Assembly: GCA_020632075.1 (NCBI GenBank)
Contig: JACKGH010000001.1
Coordinates: 458,852 to 522,851, forward strand
Direction of reading: 5' to 3'
Source: Candidatus Nomurabacteria bacterium
Lineage (GTDB): Bacteria; Patescibacteriota; Minisyncoccia; Phycocordibacterales; UBA918
Length of the DNA: 64,000 nt
Shown: one piece after another, positions 39,701 to 58,995 of the stretch
Position numbering within the stretch: position 1 is the first letter of the stretch
Layout: each line of letters opens with the position of its first letter
Program-made: the position numbers and the translations under genes
The notes under the pieces: generated by a model
The model's input: only the letters and a program-made list of their open reading frames with translations
Told to the model about the DNA's origin: nothing
Databases searched by the model: none

Positions 39701-39997
39701 AAGGGCCACCAGGGCACGACCGTTGTGACCACCGGCCTCATCGAGATCGTCAAAGAACTCCTCACCAAAAAGGGTGACAAAATGGCCTTCATCAAGATCG
39801 CCAACCAAACCGACAGTATCGAAACCGTCGCCTTCCCCGAAACCTACAAAGACAATCGTGAGCTCTTCGTGCCAGGCACCTGCGTGGCCATCAAAGGTAA
39901 GTTCAATGTCCGCAATGACGAGCCATCGATTTTGATCGATAAAGTGAAGCGACTTGGGAGTGATGAGATGGTGGGAGAGCCGATTTCTAGTAATTGA
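36758..39997 (+). CDS. dnaE: DNA polymerase III alpha subunit
   Basis: Start at MAESDQSY (the 6-frame ORF begins 30 codons earlier at 36668); PHP domain FVHLHVHSMYSLL; polymerase core through C-terminal OB domain; ~1080 aa. Confidence 0.95.
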   Translation: MAESDQSYPPIKADFVHLHVHSMYSLLNAVPTPKELVKAAKADGQDALAITDAGALYGAIDFYKACTYEDVKPIIGLDAYLAPRTRFDKEMQDRPHSRLVLLSKTFSGYQNLIEMVTRSNVDGFYYKPRLDDELLEKHHEGLICIIPSFAGEIAQALKDNNPDKAAERLDWYKSLFGDDCYLEISHHPEIFGHQENQELIKKLARETDTPLVAAQDIYYMKPGDRLAREVMVKIGSGGVVDTTADHDTGEDFSFKTQAEMKEWFADTPEAISNTVKIANECNVKITLGQDAWMFPKYIIESGRTPDNELHHRAWEGVTWRGMDPEDEELKDRLTFELDVIKMKGYATYFLAVGDLLREARERGIYTTIRGSVAGSLATYVLGITNVDPLEYRLPFERFLNPERPSAPDIDMDFADNRRDEIISYAREKYGYDNVAQIGTFGTMMAKAAVRDVARALGHSYSTGDRISKMIPMGSQGFAMTIDRAIDIEPELAELYKKDAESREVIDLAKQIEGRVRHLGVHAAGVVIAPEPLNNYVPIQIDSKTGKQITQYEMKSVGEDGVGLLKFDFLGIKNLAILADAVKRVKKIHNVDIDIENIPLDDPKTFEILASGQTMGLFQLNGSGMTAFLKQLKPTTIHDINAMVALYRPGPMEMIPTYIERKYNPSLVTYLDPRLEPILERSYGVITYQDDVMMISIQLAGYSWLEADMLRKAMGKKIPELMEEQKKKLFAGFLEHGLSQDKADKLWQLIEPFAAYGFNKAHAASYGRVAYQTAYMKANFPVEYMSAVLTADSGDTEKISEIIHECERMGVPVLPPDINESFSDFSVVPGKNTIRFGLTTIKNFGEGIADVIIEERKKNGPFASMQDFLTRIHDRGLNKKSLEALIMTGAFDKFGERGELIANLDNLLAYNREQVSGKETGQDSLFGGMDEVSGLTLEPAEDAPMAQKLLWEKELLGVYVSGHPLDAVKDEVDKRPSIEQVKKGHQGTTVVTTGLIEIVKELLTKKGDKMAFIKIANQTDSIETVAFPETYKDNRELFVPGTCVAIKGKFNVRNDEPSILIDKVKRLGSDEMVGEPISSN

Positions 39998-40404
39998 CAA
40001 ATGACAAACAATATGTATAGTATTTTAGTCCTAGGTCTTACTGGAGAACATCATGGAAGTTAATCCTGAAGAGTATCTCAATCGCGAATTCTTGTCTTTT
40101 GCAAAGAAATTTGGGTTTTCACCCTCGACATCTCAACCTCAACAGTTTAACGAACTTAGAACGACAGCCGTGGTGCACCTTCTCTATAGCATGGTTGACA
40201 CAAACCGTTTCGCCTCGCTTGACGAGACAAAACGACTACGGATTGGGGGATTGTCGCTGCAGCGTCGAAGAATGCCTGTCACAACAATAGTAACTACGAA
40301 CAAAATTTTAACTTGTCTCTATCGCTGGCAACCTGGATCAACACCTACCCGGCTGAGTAGAGAGGGATTCGTTGCACACCGCGTCCTCGGCCGCGGTTTT
40401 TTGT

Positions 40405-40430
40405 TTGACAATATTTTTTAGCGCTAGGAT
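40405..40430 (+). promoter_or_regulatory. promoter-like motif copy B (TTGACA-14-TAGGAT)
   Basis: tttgacaatattttttagcgctaggattgtagaaacagagattg is near-identical to copy A, including downstream ACAGAGATTG. Confidence 0.4.
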
Positions 40431-40456
40431 TGTAGAAACAGAGATTGTAACTTGAA

Positions 40457-40696
40457 CTAGTTAGGCGAACTTTGCTTCTTGAGCAAAATGTATGAAACCA
40501 AACCAGAAATAAACACGATGCAGAAGAGAAATAGAGCAAGATAAGCTTCGCTCACACCGATCATCCAGTACATACCAAACACCATCATCCAAACCAAATT
40601 CAATACGAAAGCAATACCGACCGTCAAGAGTATGAATTTTAGCAAGTAAATCACCTTAGAATCTGATGCGATAATTTCTTTTTGCAATATATTCAT
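40457..40696 (-). CDS. hypothetical small two-TM membrane protein (doubtful)
   Basis: 79-aa ORF with two hydrophobic segments; no SD; lies antisense to a region downstream of a promoter-like motif. Confidence 0.25.
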   Translation of the reverse strand: MNILQKEIIASDSKVIYLLKFILLTVGIAFVLNLVWMMVFGMYWMIGVSEAYLALFLFCIVFISGLVSYILLKKQSSPN

Positions 40697-40759
40697 AGCA
40701 TTACATTCTTAAATTTTATTATTCACATAATAGCATAGGCGACTTCTTTTCTGGAAAAA

Positions 40760-40787
40760 TTGACAATATTTCTAGTCGCGTTAGGAT
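40760..40787 (+). promoter_or_regulatory. promoter-like motif copy A (TTGACA-16-TAGGAT) upstream of the T-box leader
   Basis: TTGACA 40760-40765, TAGGAT 40782-40787; conserved block AATATTTCTAG...GCG.TTAGGATTGTA shared with copy B. Confidence 0.5.
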
Positions 40788-40792
40788 TGTAC

Positions 40793-40980
40793 GTACAGAG
40801 ATTGCAGCGGCTACCAACCGCTGGGGCGCGAACGAAGTGAGCGCCCATGAGGAATCACTTCCCTTCTAACCTGTACCAATGAAGCGCCGAGCGGCATACC
40901 AGCTCGGAAACTCGGTGGAACCGCGATCAAGATCGTCCGAGTAGGCACACGAATTTCGTGTATCTACTCGGACGTTTTTT
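40793..40980 (+). promoter_or_regulatory. T-box riboswitch leader (Thr-specific; ultrashort stem I with ACC in a 7-nt loop) ending in a terminator/antiterminator
   Basis: T-box sequence CUCGG-UGGAACC-GCGAUCAAGAUCG-CCGAG (40911-40941): 7-nt UGGAACC bulge flanked by helices, with the 3' strand shared with terminator stem GTCCGAGTAG/CTACTCGGAC + T6 (40935-40980); specifier hairpin CAGCGG-CUACCAA-CCGCUG at 40805-40823; UGGA bulge matches discriminator U of the tRNA-Thr in this window. Confidence 0.75.
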
Positions 40981-41353
40981 AAATGAGAAAAGGAGCCTAC
41001 GGCGACTATTTCGAATTTATGCAGGCGCTTCAGCAGATTCGACCTACCAAGGGAGAATATGCTAATAGCGAGCTGCACCAATTTATTAACCAGATTGTTC
41101 CTTTCAGACCTTTTCCAGACACGCATCCTCGCCTCCAGCGGGCTCGGCGCTATGCTCGCTGAGTTTCGCACTTTCGTGCGACCGAGCAAATCGAGCTGCG
41201 CAATGTCTGTCAAAAGTCTGAAAGGAACAATCACCACATCCGAGAGCCAGAGAATTATTGCTGTCTAGCGAAACATCTGCAGCGACAATACCCGGAGCGA
41301 AGCCGTTTCGTCTGATAGTAATAATTCTCTGGCTCTAAGAAAAATTCACAATT

Positions 41354-43105
41354 ATGGACCAATCACTCGAACACAAACGACACACCCTTGCTCACCTGCT
41401 CGCGGCAGCGGTGTTGCAGCGATACCCGCACGCCAAGCTCACCCTCGGCCCAGCGATCGACAACGGCTTTTACTACGATATCGACTTCTCAGCTGGCGAA
41501 ACACCGGGCGATAGCGATCTCAAGGGTCTCCAGAAAGACATGAAGAAGCTCCTCAATAAGTGGACTGACTTTACCCACGAGGAAGTCTCGGCGGAGCAGG
41601 CACGCGAAGCTTTTGCCGGCAACAAGTTCAAACTCGAGCTCATCGACGAGATCGAAGGCAAGAGTGAGACAATTACGCTCTACACATGTGGCGGCTTTAC
41701 CGATCTCTGTCGTGGTGGCCACTGTGAACACCCAAACAAAGACATCAACGCTGACGCGTTCAAGCTCGATAAGATCGCTGGTGCCTACTGGCGTGGTGAT
41801 GAGAAGAACCCGATGCTCACTCGCATCTACGGTCTCGCATTTGAGACCAAAGAAGAGCTCGAAGCCTATGAGAAGCAGCAGGAGGAAGCCAAAGCGCGTG
41901 ACCACCGCAAGCTCGGCAAAGAACTCGACCTCTTCACCTTCTCTGAACTGATTGGTCCAGGCCTCCCTCTTTTCACCCCTAAAGGCACCCTTATGCGTGA
42001 CCTCATCGTAGAAAAGATCATGAAGATTCAGGCGAAGTTCGGCTACACCAAAGTAACCATTCCGCACATCACCAAAAGCGATCTCTACAAGACCTCCGGT
42101 CACTGGGACAAGTTTAAGGATGAGCTCTTCCATGTTAAAGGTCAGTCTGACGCTGAGTTTGTGATGAAACCAATGAACTGTCCGCACCACACACAGATAT
42201 TCGACAGCCGGCCACGTTCATACAAAGAGCTACCGATCCGTTACGCCGAGACCACGATGGTCTATCGCGACGAGCAGGCCGGCGAGCTGATTGGTCTTAG
42301 TCGAGTGCGCAGTATTACGCAAGACGATGGACACGTGTTCTGTACCGTTGATCAGATCGAGCAGGAAGTCGAAAATATTCTTAACGTGATCAAGGAGTTC
42401 TACACTGCGCTTGGTATGTACGAAGAAGGTAAGTTCTGGGTTTCGCTCTCAGTCAGTGATCCAAATGATCCCGACGGCCGGCTAGGAGATGACGCTGTGT
42501 GGGACAAAGCAGAAAGCACCCTCGAAGAAGTAGCGAAGCGACTCAACCTCCCGTACAAGCGAGTTGAGGGTGAAGCAGCCTTTTATGGACCAAAGATCGA
42601 CTTCATGTTCTATGATGCGATCGGGCGCGAGAGGCAGCTTGGCACCGCCCAGCTCGACTTCGTGATGCCAAGTCGCTTTGGCCTCACCTACACTGACAAC
42701 GAAGGCAACAAGCAGATTCCAGTAATGATCCATCGTGCCATTGCAGGATCACTCGAGCGCTTTATGGCTGTGATGATCGAGCACTTCGCCGGCAACTTCC
42801 CACTCTGGCTCTCGCCGGTACAGCTCGCCGTGATTCCGGTCGCTGATGCGCACAATGAATATGCACGAGAGGTGGCGGAAATTTTGCGCCAGCAAAATTT
42901 CCGCGTCGAGCTCGACGACTCAAAAGAAGGTATGGGCAAGAAGATCCGCGCTGCCAAACAAGCCAAACTCCCCTACTTCATCGTCATTGGTGACAAAGAA
43001 GTTGAAGGGAAAACCATCACCCTTGAAAGTCGTGACGCCGAGGGTTCAGAATCGCTCAACATTGAGGCATTGCTGGCGAAATTATCTACCGAGGCAAGCG
43101 TATAA
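41354..43105 (+). CDS. thrS: threonyl-tRNA synthetase (lacks N-terminal TGS domain)
   Basis: 583-aa ORF beginning in the editing domain (RHTLAHLLAAAV); class II motifs and C-terminal anticodon-binding domain. Confidence 0.95.
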   Translation: MDQSLEHKRHTLAHLLAAAVLQRYPHAKLTLGPAIDNGFYYDIDFSAGETPGDSDLKGLQKDMKKLLNKWTDFTHEEVSAEQAREAFAGNKFKLELIDEIEGKSETITLYTCGGFTDLCRGGHCEHPNKDINADAFKLDKIAGAYWRGDEKNPMLTRIYGLAFETKEELEAYEKQQEEAKARDHRKLGKELDLFTFSELIGPGLPLFTPKGTLMRDLIVEKIMKIQAKFGYTKVTIPHITKSDLYKTSGHWDKFKDELFHVKGQSDAEFVMKPMNCPHHTQIFDSRPRSYKELPIRYAETTMVYRDEQAGELIGLSRVRSITQDDGHVFCTVDQIEQEVENILNVIKEFYTALGMYEEGKFWVSLSVSDPNDPDGRLGDDAVWDKAESTLEEVAKRLNLPYKRVEGEAAFYGPKIDFMFYDAIGRERQLGTAQLDFVMPSRFGLTYTDNEGNKQIPVMIHRAIAGSLERFMAVMIEHFAGNFPLWLSPVQLAVIPVADAHNEYAREVAEILRQQNFRVELDDSKEGMGKKIRAAKQAKLPYFIVIGDKEVEGKTITLESRDAEGSESLNIEALLAKLSTEASV

Positions 43106-57740: not shown

Positions 57741-57813
57741 GCCACCTTAGCTCAGTTGGTAGAGCAACGGTTTTGTAAACCGTGGGTCGTCAGTTCGAGT
57801 CTGACAGGTGGCT
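57741..57813 (+). tRNA. tRNA-Thr (anticodon UGU); CCA not encoded
   Basis: Cloverleaf read directly: acceptor GCCACCT/AGGTGGC, D-arm GCTCAGTTGGTAGAGC, anticodon arm ACGGT-TTTGTAA-ACCGT, T-arm GTCAG-TTCGAGT-CTGAC, discriminator U. Confidence 0.9.
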
Positions 57814-58896: not shown

Positions 58897-58995
58897 ATGA
58901 ATGAATATCCAGAGGATATATTTATGAATGTACGTCTGAATGTGCGCTATTCCCAGCGCACATTCCTAGACGAATCTAACAAATTATAACAGAGA

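What the first reader, a model, noticed from the sequence alone, without database searches (positions are those of the whole stretch)
40793..41353. T-box riboswitch with ultrashort stem I and Thr (ACC) specifier, but ~370 nt away from the thrS start codon
A canonical T-box antiterminator/terminator is readable. Helix CUCGG pairs with CCGAG around a 7-nt UGGAACC bulge, and the 3' strand is shared with a long terminator stem followed by T6. Upstream there is a short hairpin with the 7-nt loop CUACCAA (ACC followed by a purine), resembling the ultrashort stem I T-boxes described for actinobacterial ileS, rather than a long stem I with a K-turn. The bulge UGGA predicts discriminator base U, which matches the tRNA-Thr encoded at 57741. 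After the terminator there are ~370 nt before the thrS ATG (41354). This gap holds only a 59-codon ORF (40983-41162) and no SD before thrS. The T-box architecture itself and the function of the spacer are both unusual.
Basis: partly seen in the sequence, partly recalled or inferred. Interest (0 to 1): 0.6.

Follow-up and report, generated by a model that had tools for sequence, protein, structure and literature searches.

The report
Minimal threonine T-box leader before thrS
The threonyl-tRNA synthetase gene of this tiny-genome (Patescibacteria) bacterium is preceded by a real but stripped-down tRNA-sensing T-box riboswitch that ends in a transcription terminator, a combination the T-box literature I could search does not describe, followed by a lineage-specific stretch of long hairpin modules of unknown role.

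Summary
Window 40793-40980 (+) holds a T-box. It has a 6-bp hairpin with the 7-nt loop CUACCAA (Thr codon ACC plus a purine), Stem III with flanking purines, and an antiterminator with the UGGAACC bulge. A competing terminator and U6 follow. A promoter-like site lies at 40760-40787.

Rfam's T-box model scores only 31 bits (curated cut-off 93), so routine annotation misses it. A model built here finds the same architecture upstream of thrS, and nowhere else, in about 70 Patescibacteria loci. Covariation is very strong: 96% of cells paired, 19 of 26 pairs compensatory, 0 of 500 shuffles as good. All specifiers are ACC.

The class lacks the long Stem I, and there is no room for a canonical Stem II domain, yet it carries a terminator. 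The only described ultrashort T-boxes are translational ileS leaders of Actinobacteria. I rate it a new variant of a known kind.

The 373-nt spacer is not part of the T-box. Compact members place the ATG 11-79 nt (median 33) after the terminator hairpin. The spacer is a mosaic of three structured modules (A, B, C) that vary in presence, order and orientation among close relatives. The missing SD is normal for this genome. The role of the modules is unresolved.

The parts
40760..40787 (+). Promoter-like site of the thrS leader: TTGACA (40760-65), 16 nt, TAGGAT (40782-87). The predicted start of the transcript is about 40793-95.
   Evidence: 10 of 12 matches. A promoter-like site of at least 10/12 lies upstream of 36 of 63 family members.
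40795..40874 (+). Decoding module. Outer helix P0 pairs ACAGA 40795-99 with CCUGU 40870-74 (one A-C mismatch in the window). Conserved junction GA 40800-01, UU 40802-03 with AA 40868-69, and G 40804. Specifier hairpin 40805-23. Variable hairpins HP2 40824-46 and HP3 40851-62. Conserved CUAA(U/C)C 40866-71.
   Evidence: Alignments A1 and A4. All 5 P0 pairs and 5-6 of the 6 specifier-stem pairs show compensatory changes.
40811..40817 (+). Specifier loop CUACCAA, with Thr codon ACC at 40813-15 followed by a purine. It is shaped like a 7-nt anticodon loop.
   Evidence: ACC plus purine is present in 56 of 56 aligned members, and 37 of 56 are exactly CUACCAA.
40881..40909 (+). Stem III (40887-40907) with flanking conserved purines GAAGCG (40881-86) and AA (40908-09). 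[quoted passage not shown]
   Evidence: Conserved columns in A1. Stem III pairs covary. The motif is as defined in PMC7583486.
40910..40942 (+). Antiterminator: A1 40910-15 with 40937-42, T-box bulge UGGAACC 40916-22 (UGGA predicts pairing with 3'-UCCA of the tRNA), and A2 40923-36 closed by a G-U pair.
   Evidence: The bulge is UGGAACC in 55 of 56 members. The terminal A2 pair is G-U in 32 and G-C in 21 members.
40934..40980 (+). Intrinsic terminator: hairpin 40934-74 plus U6 40975-80. It uses the 3' strand of A1 and A2.
   Evidence: I3; -29.4 kcal/mol. At least 46 of 57 distinct members have a strong hairpin followed by at least 5 U in 9 nt. Terminator-stem mismatches read on the sense strand are G-U 61 against A-C 5.
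40981..41092 (+). Spacer module A, a two-hairpin element starting AAAUGAGNAAA. It contains the start of the non-conserved 59-codon ORF.
   Evidence: Shared with L003, L015, L093, L106 (two copies), L084, L081, L108, L164 and L166. Copies also lie outside leaders (window 58897-58976; directly after the thrS stop in L088, L091, L165).
41093..41232 (+). Spacer module B: 29-nt inverted-repeat arms around an 82-nt conserved core that folds as a three-way junction. In the window its better-folding strand is the one antisense to thrS.
   Evidence: (I2). The nearest relative L161 has it inverted at 86% identity.
41243..41336 (+). Spacer module C: 32-nt arms around the core UAGCGAAACAUCUGCAGC...GCGAAGCCGUUUCGUCU. 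The hairpin ends about 14-18 nt before the ATG.
   Evidence: I1; 28 pairs, 25 with compensatory change.
41354..43105 (+). thrS, threonine--tRNA ligase, 583 aa, without an N-terminal TGS domain. This is the regulated gene.
   Evidence: The length of 583 aa is kept in most of the 120 listed homologs of 78-100% identity, and Pfam domains are PF07973, PF00587 and PF03129.
40405..40447 (+). Second, upstream copy of the leader promoter plus the first bases of the leader (ACAGAGAUUG). It has no T-box behind it.
   Evidence: D1, D5. It sits directly after terminator 40378-97, where the single promoter sits in L161.

Best explanation
Window 40793-40980 is a threonine-specific T-box riboswitch that controls thrS by transcription attenuation.

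Proposed mechanism:
1. Transcription starts about 40794 from the promoter at 40760-87.
2. The anticodon of uncharged tRNA-Thr(GGU) pairs with ACC, displayed in an anticodon-loop-like 7-nt hairpin loop.
3. The tRNA's free 3'-UCCA end pairs with UGGA in the bulge. Together with the Stem III purines, this stabilises the weak antiterminator.
4. RNA polymerase then reads through the terminator at 40934-80 into thrS.
5. Charged tRNA cannot stabilise the antiterminator, so the much stronger terminator forms.

What is shown and what is inferred:
- Shown: the sequence elements, the mutually exclusive helices, their covariation in about 60 relatives, and the exclusive link to thrS.
- Inferred from the established T-box mechanism: tRNA binding, sensing of charging, and termination.

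The leader belongs to a minimal class found across Patescibacteria. The specifier sits in a terminal loop. A covarying outer helix with a conserved GA / UU-AA junction closes a small multi-helix decoding module. There is no long Stem I and no canonical Stem II domain.

The following 373 nt are not part of the switch. They are three co-transcribed structured modules (A, B, C) that were gained, lost, duplicated and inverted within this clade. My best guess is that they are tolerated or co-opted 5'-UTR hairpins. On that view they affect processing or stability of an SD-less mRNA, with the last hairpin placed about 15 nt before the AUG. This part is weakly supported.
For: T-box:
- Full-length RF00230 match with Stem I deleted.
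- Covariation in A1: 97.3% of cells paired, 18 of 26 pairs compensatory, 0 of 500 shuffles as good.
- Covariation in A4, 56 distinct sequences of which 33 were not used to build the model: 96.3% paired, 19 of 26 compensatory, slid controls 28-41%.
- Model R1 hits 22 of 80 genome loci, 40 of 80 metagenome loci and 7 of 7 nearest relatives. Every hit is just upstream of thrS on the sense strand. There are no other hits in about 1.3 Mb, including the whole window with filters off.
- ACC plus purine in 56 of 56 members; UGGAACC in 55 of 56.
- Terminator -29.4 against antiterminator -10.8 kcal/mol.
- Terminators with U-tracts across the family, with a G-U to A-C mismatch bias of 61 to 5 on the sense strand.
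- Discriminator U in the window's tRNA-Thr.
- The genome hardly uses SD (2 of 29 ORFs), and part of Parcubacteria lacks the anti-SD (PMC9297842). SD sequestration is therefore not an available mechanism.

Spacer:
- The distance from the antiterminator end to the ATG is 59-80 nt in compact members and 150-485 nt in most of the window's clade.
- The module map shows variable content, order and orientation.
- No promoter-like site on either strand in 31 long spacers.
- The last strong hairpin ends a median of 15 nt before the ATG.
Against: - No experiment and no transcript data are available.
- The cognate tRNA-Thr(GGU) is not in the window, so the specifier/anticodon match could not be checked for this genome.
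- The Rfam score is a third of the curated cut-off.
[quoted passage not shown] It is unclear how this class binds tRNA quickly enough.

Against an mRNA-level role for the spacer:
- Hairpin mismatches over whole spacers show no sense-strand bias (G-U 27 against A-C 23).
- Each module carries its own strand polarity regardless of thrS direction.
- The window's own module B folds better on the antisense strand.
Confidence: 0.8

Rival explanations
1. The spacer modules are a second, functional regulatory layer on the thrS mRNA. Long hairpins would serve as RNase III or other processing sites, or as 5' stabilisers. They could convert a long-leader, SD-less mRNA into a form that ribosomes of a largely leaderless-translating organism can use.
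For: - The spacer folds with z = -10.6.
- The B and C cores are conserved across lineages whose ThrRS is only 64-100% identical.
- The arms evolve by compensatory change (25 of 28 pairs).
- B and C are found only in thrS leaders.
- The last hairpin ends a median of 15 nt before the ATG.
- Many genes in the window look leaderless.
- There is a precedent for RNase III cleavage of a T-box leader controlling mRNA decay in S. aureus (title and abstract of PMC7913692).
Against: - Close relatives do without them. L114 lacks B while L115 has it, at 93.7% identity over the thrS 5' region. Compact members exist at 75-80% ThrRS identity.
- Orientation relative to thrS is not conserved.
- Mismatch types show no sense-strand selection over whole spacers.
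- Reverse copies favour the antisense strand.
Confidence: 0.3
2. The modules are selfish or mechanically generated palindromic DNA, comparable to REP/REPIN/BIME or MITE elements. They would have accumulated in a permissive site between the terminator and the start codon and be essentially neutral for thrS.
For: - Presence/absence, copy number, order and orientation all vary among close relatives.
- Oppositely oriented doublets (C- with C+, B with C) recall REP doublets. The resemblance to REPINs/BIMEs is from my own knowledge.
- Strand polarity travels with the element.
- Module A has copies outside leaders.
Against: - B and C were never found outside thrS leaders in about 1.3 Mb of related sequence. 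That is unlike dispersed repeats.
- Their cores are under purifying selection.
- I made no systematic search for a transposase or RAYT-like gene near the element.
Confidence: 0.3
3. The modules form an invertible DNA switch (phase variation) in the thrS leader. Recombination between the inverted-repeat arms flips the core or the whole block.
For: - B is inverted between the window and its nearest relative L161 at 86% identity.
- The B-C block is inverted as a unit in L099 and L117 compared with the window, L004, L110 and L115.
- Each module is a core flanked by 29-32-nt inverted repeats.
Against: - Three samples carrying the identical ThrRS have identical leaders in one orientation.
- There is no promoter-like site inside the modules on either strand.
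- The cores of 30-82 nt are very short for recombinase-mediated inversion (my own knowledge).
- Read-level data could not be examined.
Confidence: 0.1
4. The leader is a decayed or non-functional T-box relic, or it acts on translation as the actinobacterial ultrashort T-boxes do.
For: - Very low Rfam score.
- Loss of domains considered essential.
- Known ultrashort T-boxes are translational.
Against: - Every helix of the switch is maintained by compensatory changes in about 60 lineages. ACC and UGGA are invariant.
- All members carry a terminator hairpin with a U-tract that overlaps the antiterminator.
- The genome has almost no SD sequences to sequester.
- The start codon lies outside the hairpin.
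Confidence: 0.05
5. The spacer is a ThrRS autoregulatory operator of the E. coli thrS type. It would carry anticodon-arm mimics bound by the enzyme next to the ribosome binding site.
For: The gene is the same, and structured hairpins lie directly upstream of the start codon.
Against: - A scan of the window's spacer found no hairpin loop with an anticodon-like U-(G/C/U)-G-U-purine. The only match, at 41174, lies in a stem closing a 4-nt loop.
- There is no SD to compete for.
- The modules are absent from many close relatives.
Confidence: 0.04

Closest known systems
Canonical transcriptional T-box leaders (Rfam RF00230; e.g. Bacillus subtilis thrS, tyrS, glyQS)
   Same: - Specifier codon matching the regulated aminoacyl-tRNA synthetase, followed by a purine.
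- 7-nt bulge UGGNACC.
- A1 and A2 helices with a terminal G-U pair.
- Stem III flanked by RRRxG and AA purines.
- A terminator that competes for the 3' strand of the antiterminator.
- Placement between the promoter and an aaRS gene.
   Different: - No long Stem I. There is no AG bulge and no distal loops or interdigitated T-loops for the tRNA elbow. Rfam deletes 91 model positions.
- The specifier sits in a terminal loop rather than an internal loop.
- Only a median of 22 nt lie where a Stem II domain of about 70 nt would be.
- An outer helix encloses the specifier hairpin and the small hairpins.
- The score is 30-37 bits against a cut-off of 93.
Ultrashort (US) Stem I translational ileS T-boxes of Actinobacteria (Sherwood, Grundy and Henkin 2015, as described in PMC7583486 and bioRxiv 10.1101/2023.02.28.530422)
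   Same: - A short helix with the specifier in its terminal loop.
- No elbow-binding platform.
- A conserved discriminator core.
   Different: Features of the US class that this leader lacks:
- It regulates only ileS and responds to tRNA-Ile.
- It works by SD sequestration.
- It depends on a K-turn, a Stem II S-turn and a IIA/B pseudoknot arranged linearly.

Features of this class:
- It regulates thrS (ACC).
- It ends in an intrinsic terminator in an almost SD-less genome.
- It lacks the canonical Stem II domain.
- It has a closing outer helix.
- It occurs in Patescibacteria.
REP/REPIN/BIME-type palindromic repeats and RNase III-targeted leader hairpins (for the spacer only; comparison from my own knowledge)
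   Same: - Long imperfect palindromes in transcribed intergenic DNA.
- Inverted doublets.
- Strand-specific hairpin quality.
- Variable copy number and orientation.
   Different: - Modules B and C are confined to a single locus, the thrS leader, rather than dispersed.
- They are much longer (90-140 nt), with conserved, non-palindromic cores.
- I did not look for an associated transposase.

Membership tests
T-box riboswitch (RF00230, broad sense) | T-box sequence forming a 7-nt bulge UGGNACC between helices A1 and A2 of an antiterminator | tested here: met
   UGGAACC at 40916-22 between A1 (40910-15 with 40937-42) and A2 (40923-36). Present in 55 of 56 members. A1 pairs covary.
T-box riboswitch (RF00230, broad sense) | Specifier codon for the amino acid of the regulated gene, followed by a purine | tested here: met
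   ACC-A at 40813-16 upstream of thrS. ACC plus purine in 56 of 56 members, all upstream of thrS.
T-box riboswitch (RF00230, broad sense) | Mutually exclusive terminator (or sequestrator) sharing the 3' strand of the antiterminator | tested here: met
   Terminator 40934-74 plus U6; -29.4 against -10.8 kcal/mol. Found family-wide.
T-box riboswitch (RF00230, broad sense) | Stem III with the flanking purine string 5'-RRRxG ... AA-3' | tested here: met
   GAAGCG, Stem III 40887-907, then AA. Conserved columns in A1, and Stem III covaries.
T-box riboswitch (RF00230, broad sense) | Score at or above Rfam's gathering threshold (93 bits) | tested here: not met
   31.2 bits in the window and 30.7-36.6 bits in five relatives.
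T-box riboswitch (RF00230, broad sense) | Binding of uncharged cognate tRNA and tRNA-dependent read-through | not testable with these tools
   Needs in vitro transcription or binding assays. Only the discriminator base U of the window's tRNA-Thr(UGU) is consistent.
Canonical transcriptional (class I) T-box | Long Stem I with specifier in an internal loop and distal interdigitated T-loops that bind the tRNA elbow | tested here: not met
   Stem I is a 6-bp hairpin with a 7-nt loop. 91 model positions are deleted. The same holds in all members.
Canonical transcriptional (class I) T-box | K-turn (GA motif) at the base of Stem I | tested here: inconclusive
   A conserved GA bulge and an invariant UU-AA step lie next to the covarying outer helix.
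Canonical transcriptional (class I) T-box | Stem II with S-turn, followed by the IIA/B pseudoknot (absent only in glycine T-boxes) | tested here: not met
   Only 16-67 nt (median 22) lie between the specifier hairpin and CCUAAUC. The window's HP2 was aligned to the S-turn region by Rfam, but that sequence is not conserved even in the nearest relatives.
Actinobacterial ultrashort (US) translational ileS T-box | Specifier in the terminal loop of a very short Stem I | tested here: met
Actinobacterial ultrashort (US) translational ileS T-box | Regulates ileS and responds to tRNA-Ile | tested here: not met
   All members precede thrS and carry ACC. The US class is described as ileS only.
Actinobacterial ultrashort (US) translational ileS T-box | Expression platform is an SD sequestrator/antisequestrator | tested here: not met
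   The platform is a hairpin plus U-tract, with the start codon 11-79 nt further on (median 33) in compact members. SD-like motifs precede 2 of 29 genes.
E. coli-type thrS operator (ThrRS autoregulation) | Anticodon-arm mimics of tRNA-Thr next to the ribosome binding site | tested here: not met
   No anticodon-like loop in the 373-nt spacer. No SD.

The most novel reading that the evidence does not exclude
Patescibacteria carry a previously undescribed, naturally minimal class of transcription-terminating T-box. Its decoding module is about 80 nt long, with no elbow-binding platform and no Stem II S-turn or pseudoknot. This runs against the current rule that co-transcriptional T-boxes need the Stem I elbow contact. 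In one clade the same leader also hosts locus-specific hairpin modules that keep their own strand polarity while being inverted and reshuffled. That hints at a second mechanism, at DNA or RNA level, acting on thrS.
Probability: 0.45. Interest if true: 0.8.

Novelty: new variant of a known kind. Interest (0 to 1): 0.65.

Why it matters
The T-box literature I could search links short Stem I to slow, reversible translational control. It links long Stem I, with its tRNA-elbow contact, to kinetically demanding transcriptional control (PMC7583486). It also describes ultrashort T-boxes as ileS-only (bioRxiv 2023.02.28.530422).

A conserved, terminator-type, ultrashort thrS T-box would be a natural counter-example and a very small model system. 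The whole switch is about 130-190 nt. It could be used to ask what the minimum is for fast, specific tRNA capture.

The finding also has practical and biological consequences:
- It extends T-boxes to the Candidate Phyla Radiation, where regulatory RNAs are barely charted.
- It shows that curated cut-offs hide this class (30-37 bits against 93).
- Transcription attenuation makes sense in a lineage that has largely given up SD-dependent initiation.
- The spacer modules form a separate puzzle: conserved, single-locus, orientation-switching hairpins.

Tried and rejected
- **Rfam at gathering thresholds.** Only the tRNA was found. A permissive Rfam scan of the leader and spacer gave nothing beyond the T-box and microRNA-type noise. 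The same was true for 39950-40760.
- **Spacer as coding sequence.** The 59-aa and 69-aa ORFs have no Pfam hit. The nucleotide conservation of modules A and B is out of frame between relatives.
- **Upstream extension of thrS.** Rejected, because 583 aa is the family length.
- **Internal or antisense promoters in spacers.** None at 10 of 12 matches or better.
- **Anticodon-arm mimics.** None found.
- **Fast phase variation.** Three samples with an identical ThrRS have identical leaders.
- **Hammerhead or other ribozyme cores in module C.** Checked by eye; the cores do not fit.
- **Region 40000-40400 as a structured RNA.** Its fold is no better than shuffles (z = +1.9). Its ORF has no homolog in L161 or L162.
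- **Literature.** Searches for T-box together with Patescibacteria or CPR names found no paper. Sherwood 2015 and 2018 are not in the held library. The US class is therefore described here from secondary sources.
- **Correction to my notebook.** The entry written says L166 lacks the T-box. That is wrong: the model finds it at 93.8 bits.
Full report
**Context**

The window comes from a Candidatus Kaiserbacteria (Patescibacteria/CPR) genome. The ThrRS encoded at 41354-43105 is 100% identical to a protein from a contig of about 1 Mb with that name. Most of the 120 listed homologs of 78-88% identity are also 583 aa long, so the annotated start codon stands.

**The observation**

- A promoter-like TTGACA-16-TAGGAT lies at 40760-87.
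- A 6-bp hairpin (40805-23) carries the loop CUACCAA, with ACC at 40813-15.
- Stem III (40887-907) is flanked by GAAGCG and AA.
- The antiterminator has A1 at 40910-15 with 40937-42, the bulge UGGAACC at 40916-22, and A2 at 40923-36.
- The terminator at 40934-74 is followed by U6 at 40975-80.

The terminator is predicted at -29.4 kcal/mol and the antiterminator at -10.8, so the default state is OFF. Rfam reports no T-box at its curated cut-off. A permissive scan gives a full-length RF00230 match at 31.2 bits (cut-off 93, E 5e-5). In that match, 91 model positions of Stem I are replaced by 12 nt.

**Comparative evidence**

I collected 80 thrS loci from species-representative genomes and 80 from metagenomes, plus seven nearest relatives.

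An alignment of 23 leaders (A1) shows a shared architecture:

- A 5-bp outer helix (P0) closes the whole decoding module.
- A conserved GA and an invariant UU-AA step follow.
- Then come the specifier hairpin, one or two small variable hairpins, and the conserved CCUAAUC.
- A purine-rich linker leads to Stem III and the antiterminator.

For this structure, 97.3% of cells pair and 18 of 26 pairs show compensatory changes. No shuffle out of 500 reaches the observed values. Sliding the partners drops pairing to 29-40%.

A covariance model built from A1 finds 22 of 80 genome loci, 40 of 80 metagenome loci and all seven nearest relatives. Every hit lies directly upstream of thrS on the sense strand. 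There are no hits elsewhere in about 1.3 Mb, nor in the whole window with filters off.

On 56 distinct sequences the structure again holds: 96.3% paired and 19 of 26 pairs compensatory. All 56 loops contain ACC plus a purine, and 55 of 56 bulges read UGGAACC. Record titles place members in Kaiser-, Nomura-, Magasanik-, Lloyd- and Adlerbacteria and other Paceibacteria-type lineages. In five relatives the Rfam T-box model scores 30.7-36.6 bits. Standard annotation would therefore not call this class.

**Mode of action**

Three observations point to transcription attenuation.

1. Every member has a strong hairpin with a U-tract overlapping the antiterminator's 3' strand. A crude automatic test finds this in at least 46 of 57 distinct members.
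2. Single mismatches in these terminator stems are G-U 61 times and A-C 5 times on the sense strand. That is the signature of selection on the RNA.
3. The genome hardly uses Shine-Dalgarno sequences. Only 2 of 29 long ORFs have an SD-like 4-mer, and several genes have a -10 box 6-9 nt before the ATG. A subgroup of Parcubacteria lacks the anti-SD motif (PMC9297842).

SD sequestration is therefore not available here. UGGA predicts a tRNA with discriminator U, and the window's tRNA-Thr(UGU) has U73. Its anticodon does not match ACC at the wobble position, however. The expected ligand is a tRNA-Thr(GGU) encoded elsewhere.

**Comparison with what is known**

[quoted passage not shown] It places intermediate and ultrashort Stem I elements among translational T-boxes (PMC7583486). 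A 2023 preprint describes the ultrashort class as translational and exclusively ileS / tRNA-Ile. The short-Stem-I ileS T-boxes depend on a K-turn, a Stem II S-turn and a IIA/B pseudoknot arranged in a row (PMC10651847). TBDB searched its class II model only in Actinobacteria and in class I hits.

The present class differs in five ways:

- It shares the terminal-loop specifier, but it serves thrS.
- It ends in a terminator.
- It has only 16-67 nt (median 22) where a Stem II domain of about 70 nt would be.
- It has a different topology, with an enclosing outer helix.
- It occurs in Patescibacteria.

No paper in the held library links T-boxes to Patescibacteria or CPR. That library is incomplete, and I could not read the primary ultrashort T-box papers. 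I therefore rate the class as a new variant of a known kind, not as categorically new.

**The spacer**

From the end of the antiterminator to the ATG is 59-80 nt in compact members. It is 150-485 nt in most of the window's clade and in a second group (L110, L115, L117). The spacer is therefore not part of the switch.

In the window it consists of three modules:

- **A** (40981-41092), a two-hairpin element.
- **B** (41093-41232), with 29-nt arms around an 82-nt core.
- **C** (41243-41336), with 32-nt arms around a 30-nt core.

The whole spacer folds far better than shuffles (z = -10.6).

Modules B and C recur only in thrS leaders. Their presence, copy number, order and orientation all vary:

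- The window, L004, L110 and L115 have B then C.
- L099 and L117 have the whole block inverted.
- L106, L084, L082 and others have a reverse and a forward C.
- L114 lacks B although its thrS 5' region is 93.7% identical to that of L115.
- The nearest relative, L161 (ThrRS 88%, T-box 85% nucleotide identity), has only B, and it is inverted at 86% identity.
- Three samples with an identical ThrRS have identical leaders.

Module A also occurs outside leaders. Copies lie at window 58897-58976 and directly after the thrS stop in L088, L091 and L165.

The C hairpin is strongly supported, with 25 of 28 pairs showing compensatory change. B folds as a three-way junction with a highly conserved core.

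**The unexplained strand polarity**

Each module has a better-folding strand that travels with the module rather than with thrS.

- For C, the motif strand is more stable in 14 of 15 forward copies and 9 of 9 reverse copies. In the variable arms, G-U outnumbers A-C 19 to 6 in forward copies and 17 to 5 in reverse copies.
- For B, the antisense strand folds better in all four loci with the window's orientation. The sense strand folds better in all five loci with the opposite orientation.
- Over whole spacers read on the sense strand, G-U and A-C mismatches are balanced, 27 to 23.

No promoter-like site occurs on either strand in 31 long spacers. No anticodon-arm mimic is present. The last strong hairpin ends a median of 15 nt before the ATG.

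These facts fit none of the simple readings well, whether mRNA hairpins, mobile repeats, an invertible switch or a ThrRS operator. I rank 'tolerated or co-opted 5'-UTR hairpins' and 'REPIN-like palindromic DNA' about equally, and I flag the strand polarity as unexplained.

**Verdict**

The T-box is real. It is Thr-specific, most likely transcriptional, and a member of a widespread but unannotated minimal class (confidence about 0.8). The spacer is a lineage-specific add-on of unknown function. Interest 0.65.

Noticed in passing
window 40405-40447 (compare 40760-40804): A second copy of the thrS leader promoter (TTGACA ... TAGGAT) plus the first bases of the leader, 82-85% identical. It sits directly after terminator 40378-97, where the single promoter sits in the nearest relative L161. 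It looks like an insertion or duplication of about 355 nt that carries the small minus-strand ORF. The leader may therefore be transcribed from two promoters.
   Followed up: partly
window 40457-40696 (-): A 79-aa, very hydrophobic ORF between the two promoter copies. It has no Pfam hit. The upstream promoter copy would transcribe it in antisense.
   Followed up: partly
window 40225-40262: A partial reverse copy of the 3' half of spacer module C (30 of 38 nt complementary to 41277-41313). It lies about 1 kb upstream of the T-box, in a region with its own promoter-like site (39994) and terminator (40378-97). The region's 122-aa ORF has no Pfam hit and no homolog in L161 or L162, and the region is not more structured than shuffles.
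   Followed up: partly
whole window (29 long ORFs): The genome is almost free of Shine-Dalgarno motifs (2 of 29 ORFs). Several genes have a TATACT/TATAAT-like -10 box only 6-9 nt before the ATG, which suggests widespread leaderless mRNAs.
   Followed up: partly
window 58897-58976 (+): Another copy of spacer module A, in the intergenic gap between two minus-strand ORFs and about 1.1 kb from tRNA-Thr(UGU). Module A also sits directly after the thrS stop codon in L088, L091 and L165. A is thus a small, moderately dispersed structured repeat with an apparent affinity for thrS flanks.
   Followed up: partly
L007 (Stem III and spacer), L013, L118, L127 spacers: A different palindrome family built on GGGGTTAAACCCC-type cores appears in these more distant leaders. 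In L007 it sits even inside Stem III of the T-box.
   Followed up: no
window 41354-43105; L166 1-951: ThrRS of this clade lacks the N-terminal TGS domain. It is 583 aa long and has no TGS Pfam hit. In L166 the neighbouring dnaE carries an intein with a LAGLIDADG domain. The order dnaE, variable region, T-box-thrS, convergent CLIPPER-domain surface protein is conserved.
   Followed up: no
L001 2119-2242: A sub-threshold Rfam 'Thr_leader' match on both strands at the 3' end of thrS (34-38 bits against a cut-off of 55). It is probably a palindromic terminator and not a leader peptide attenuator.
   Followed up: no
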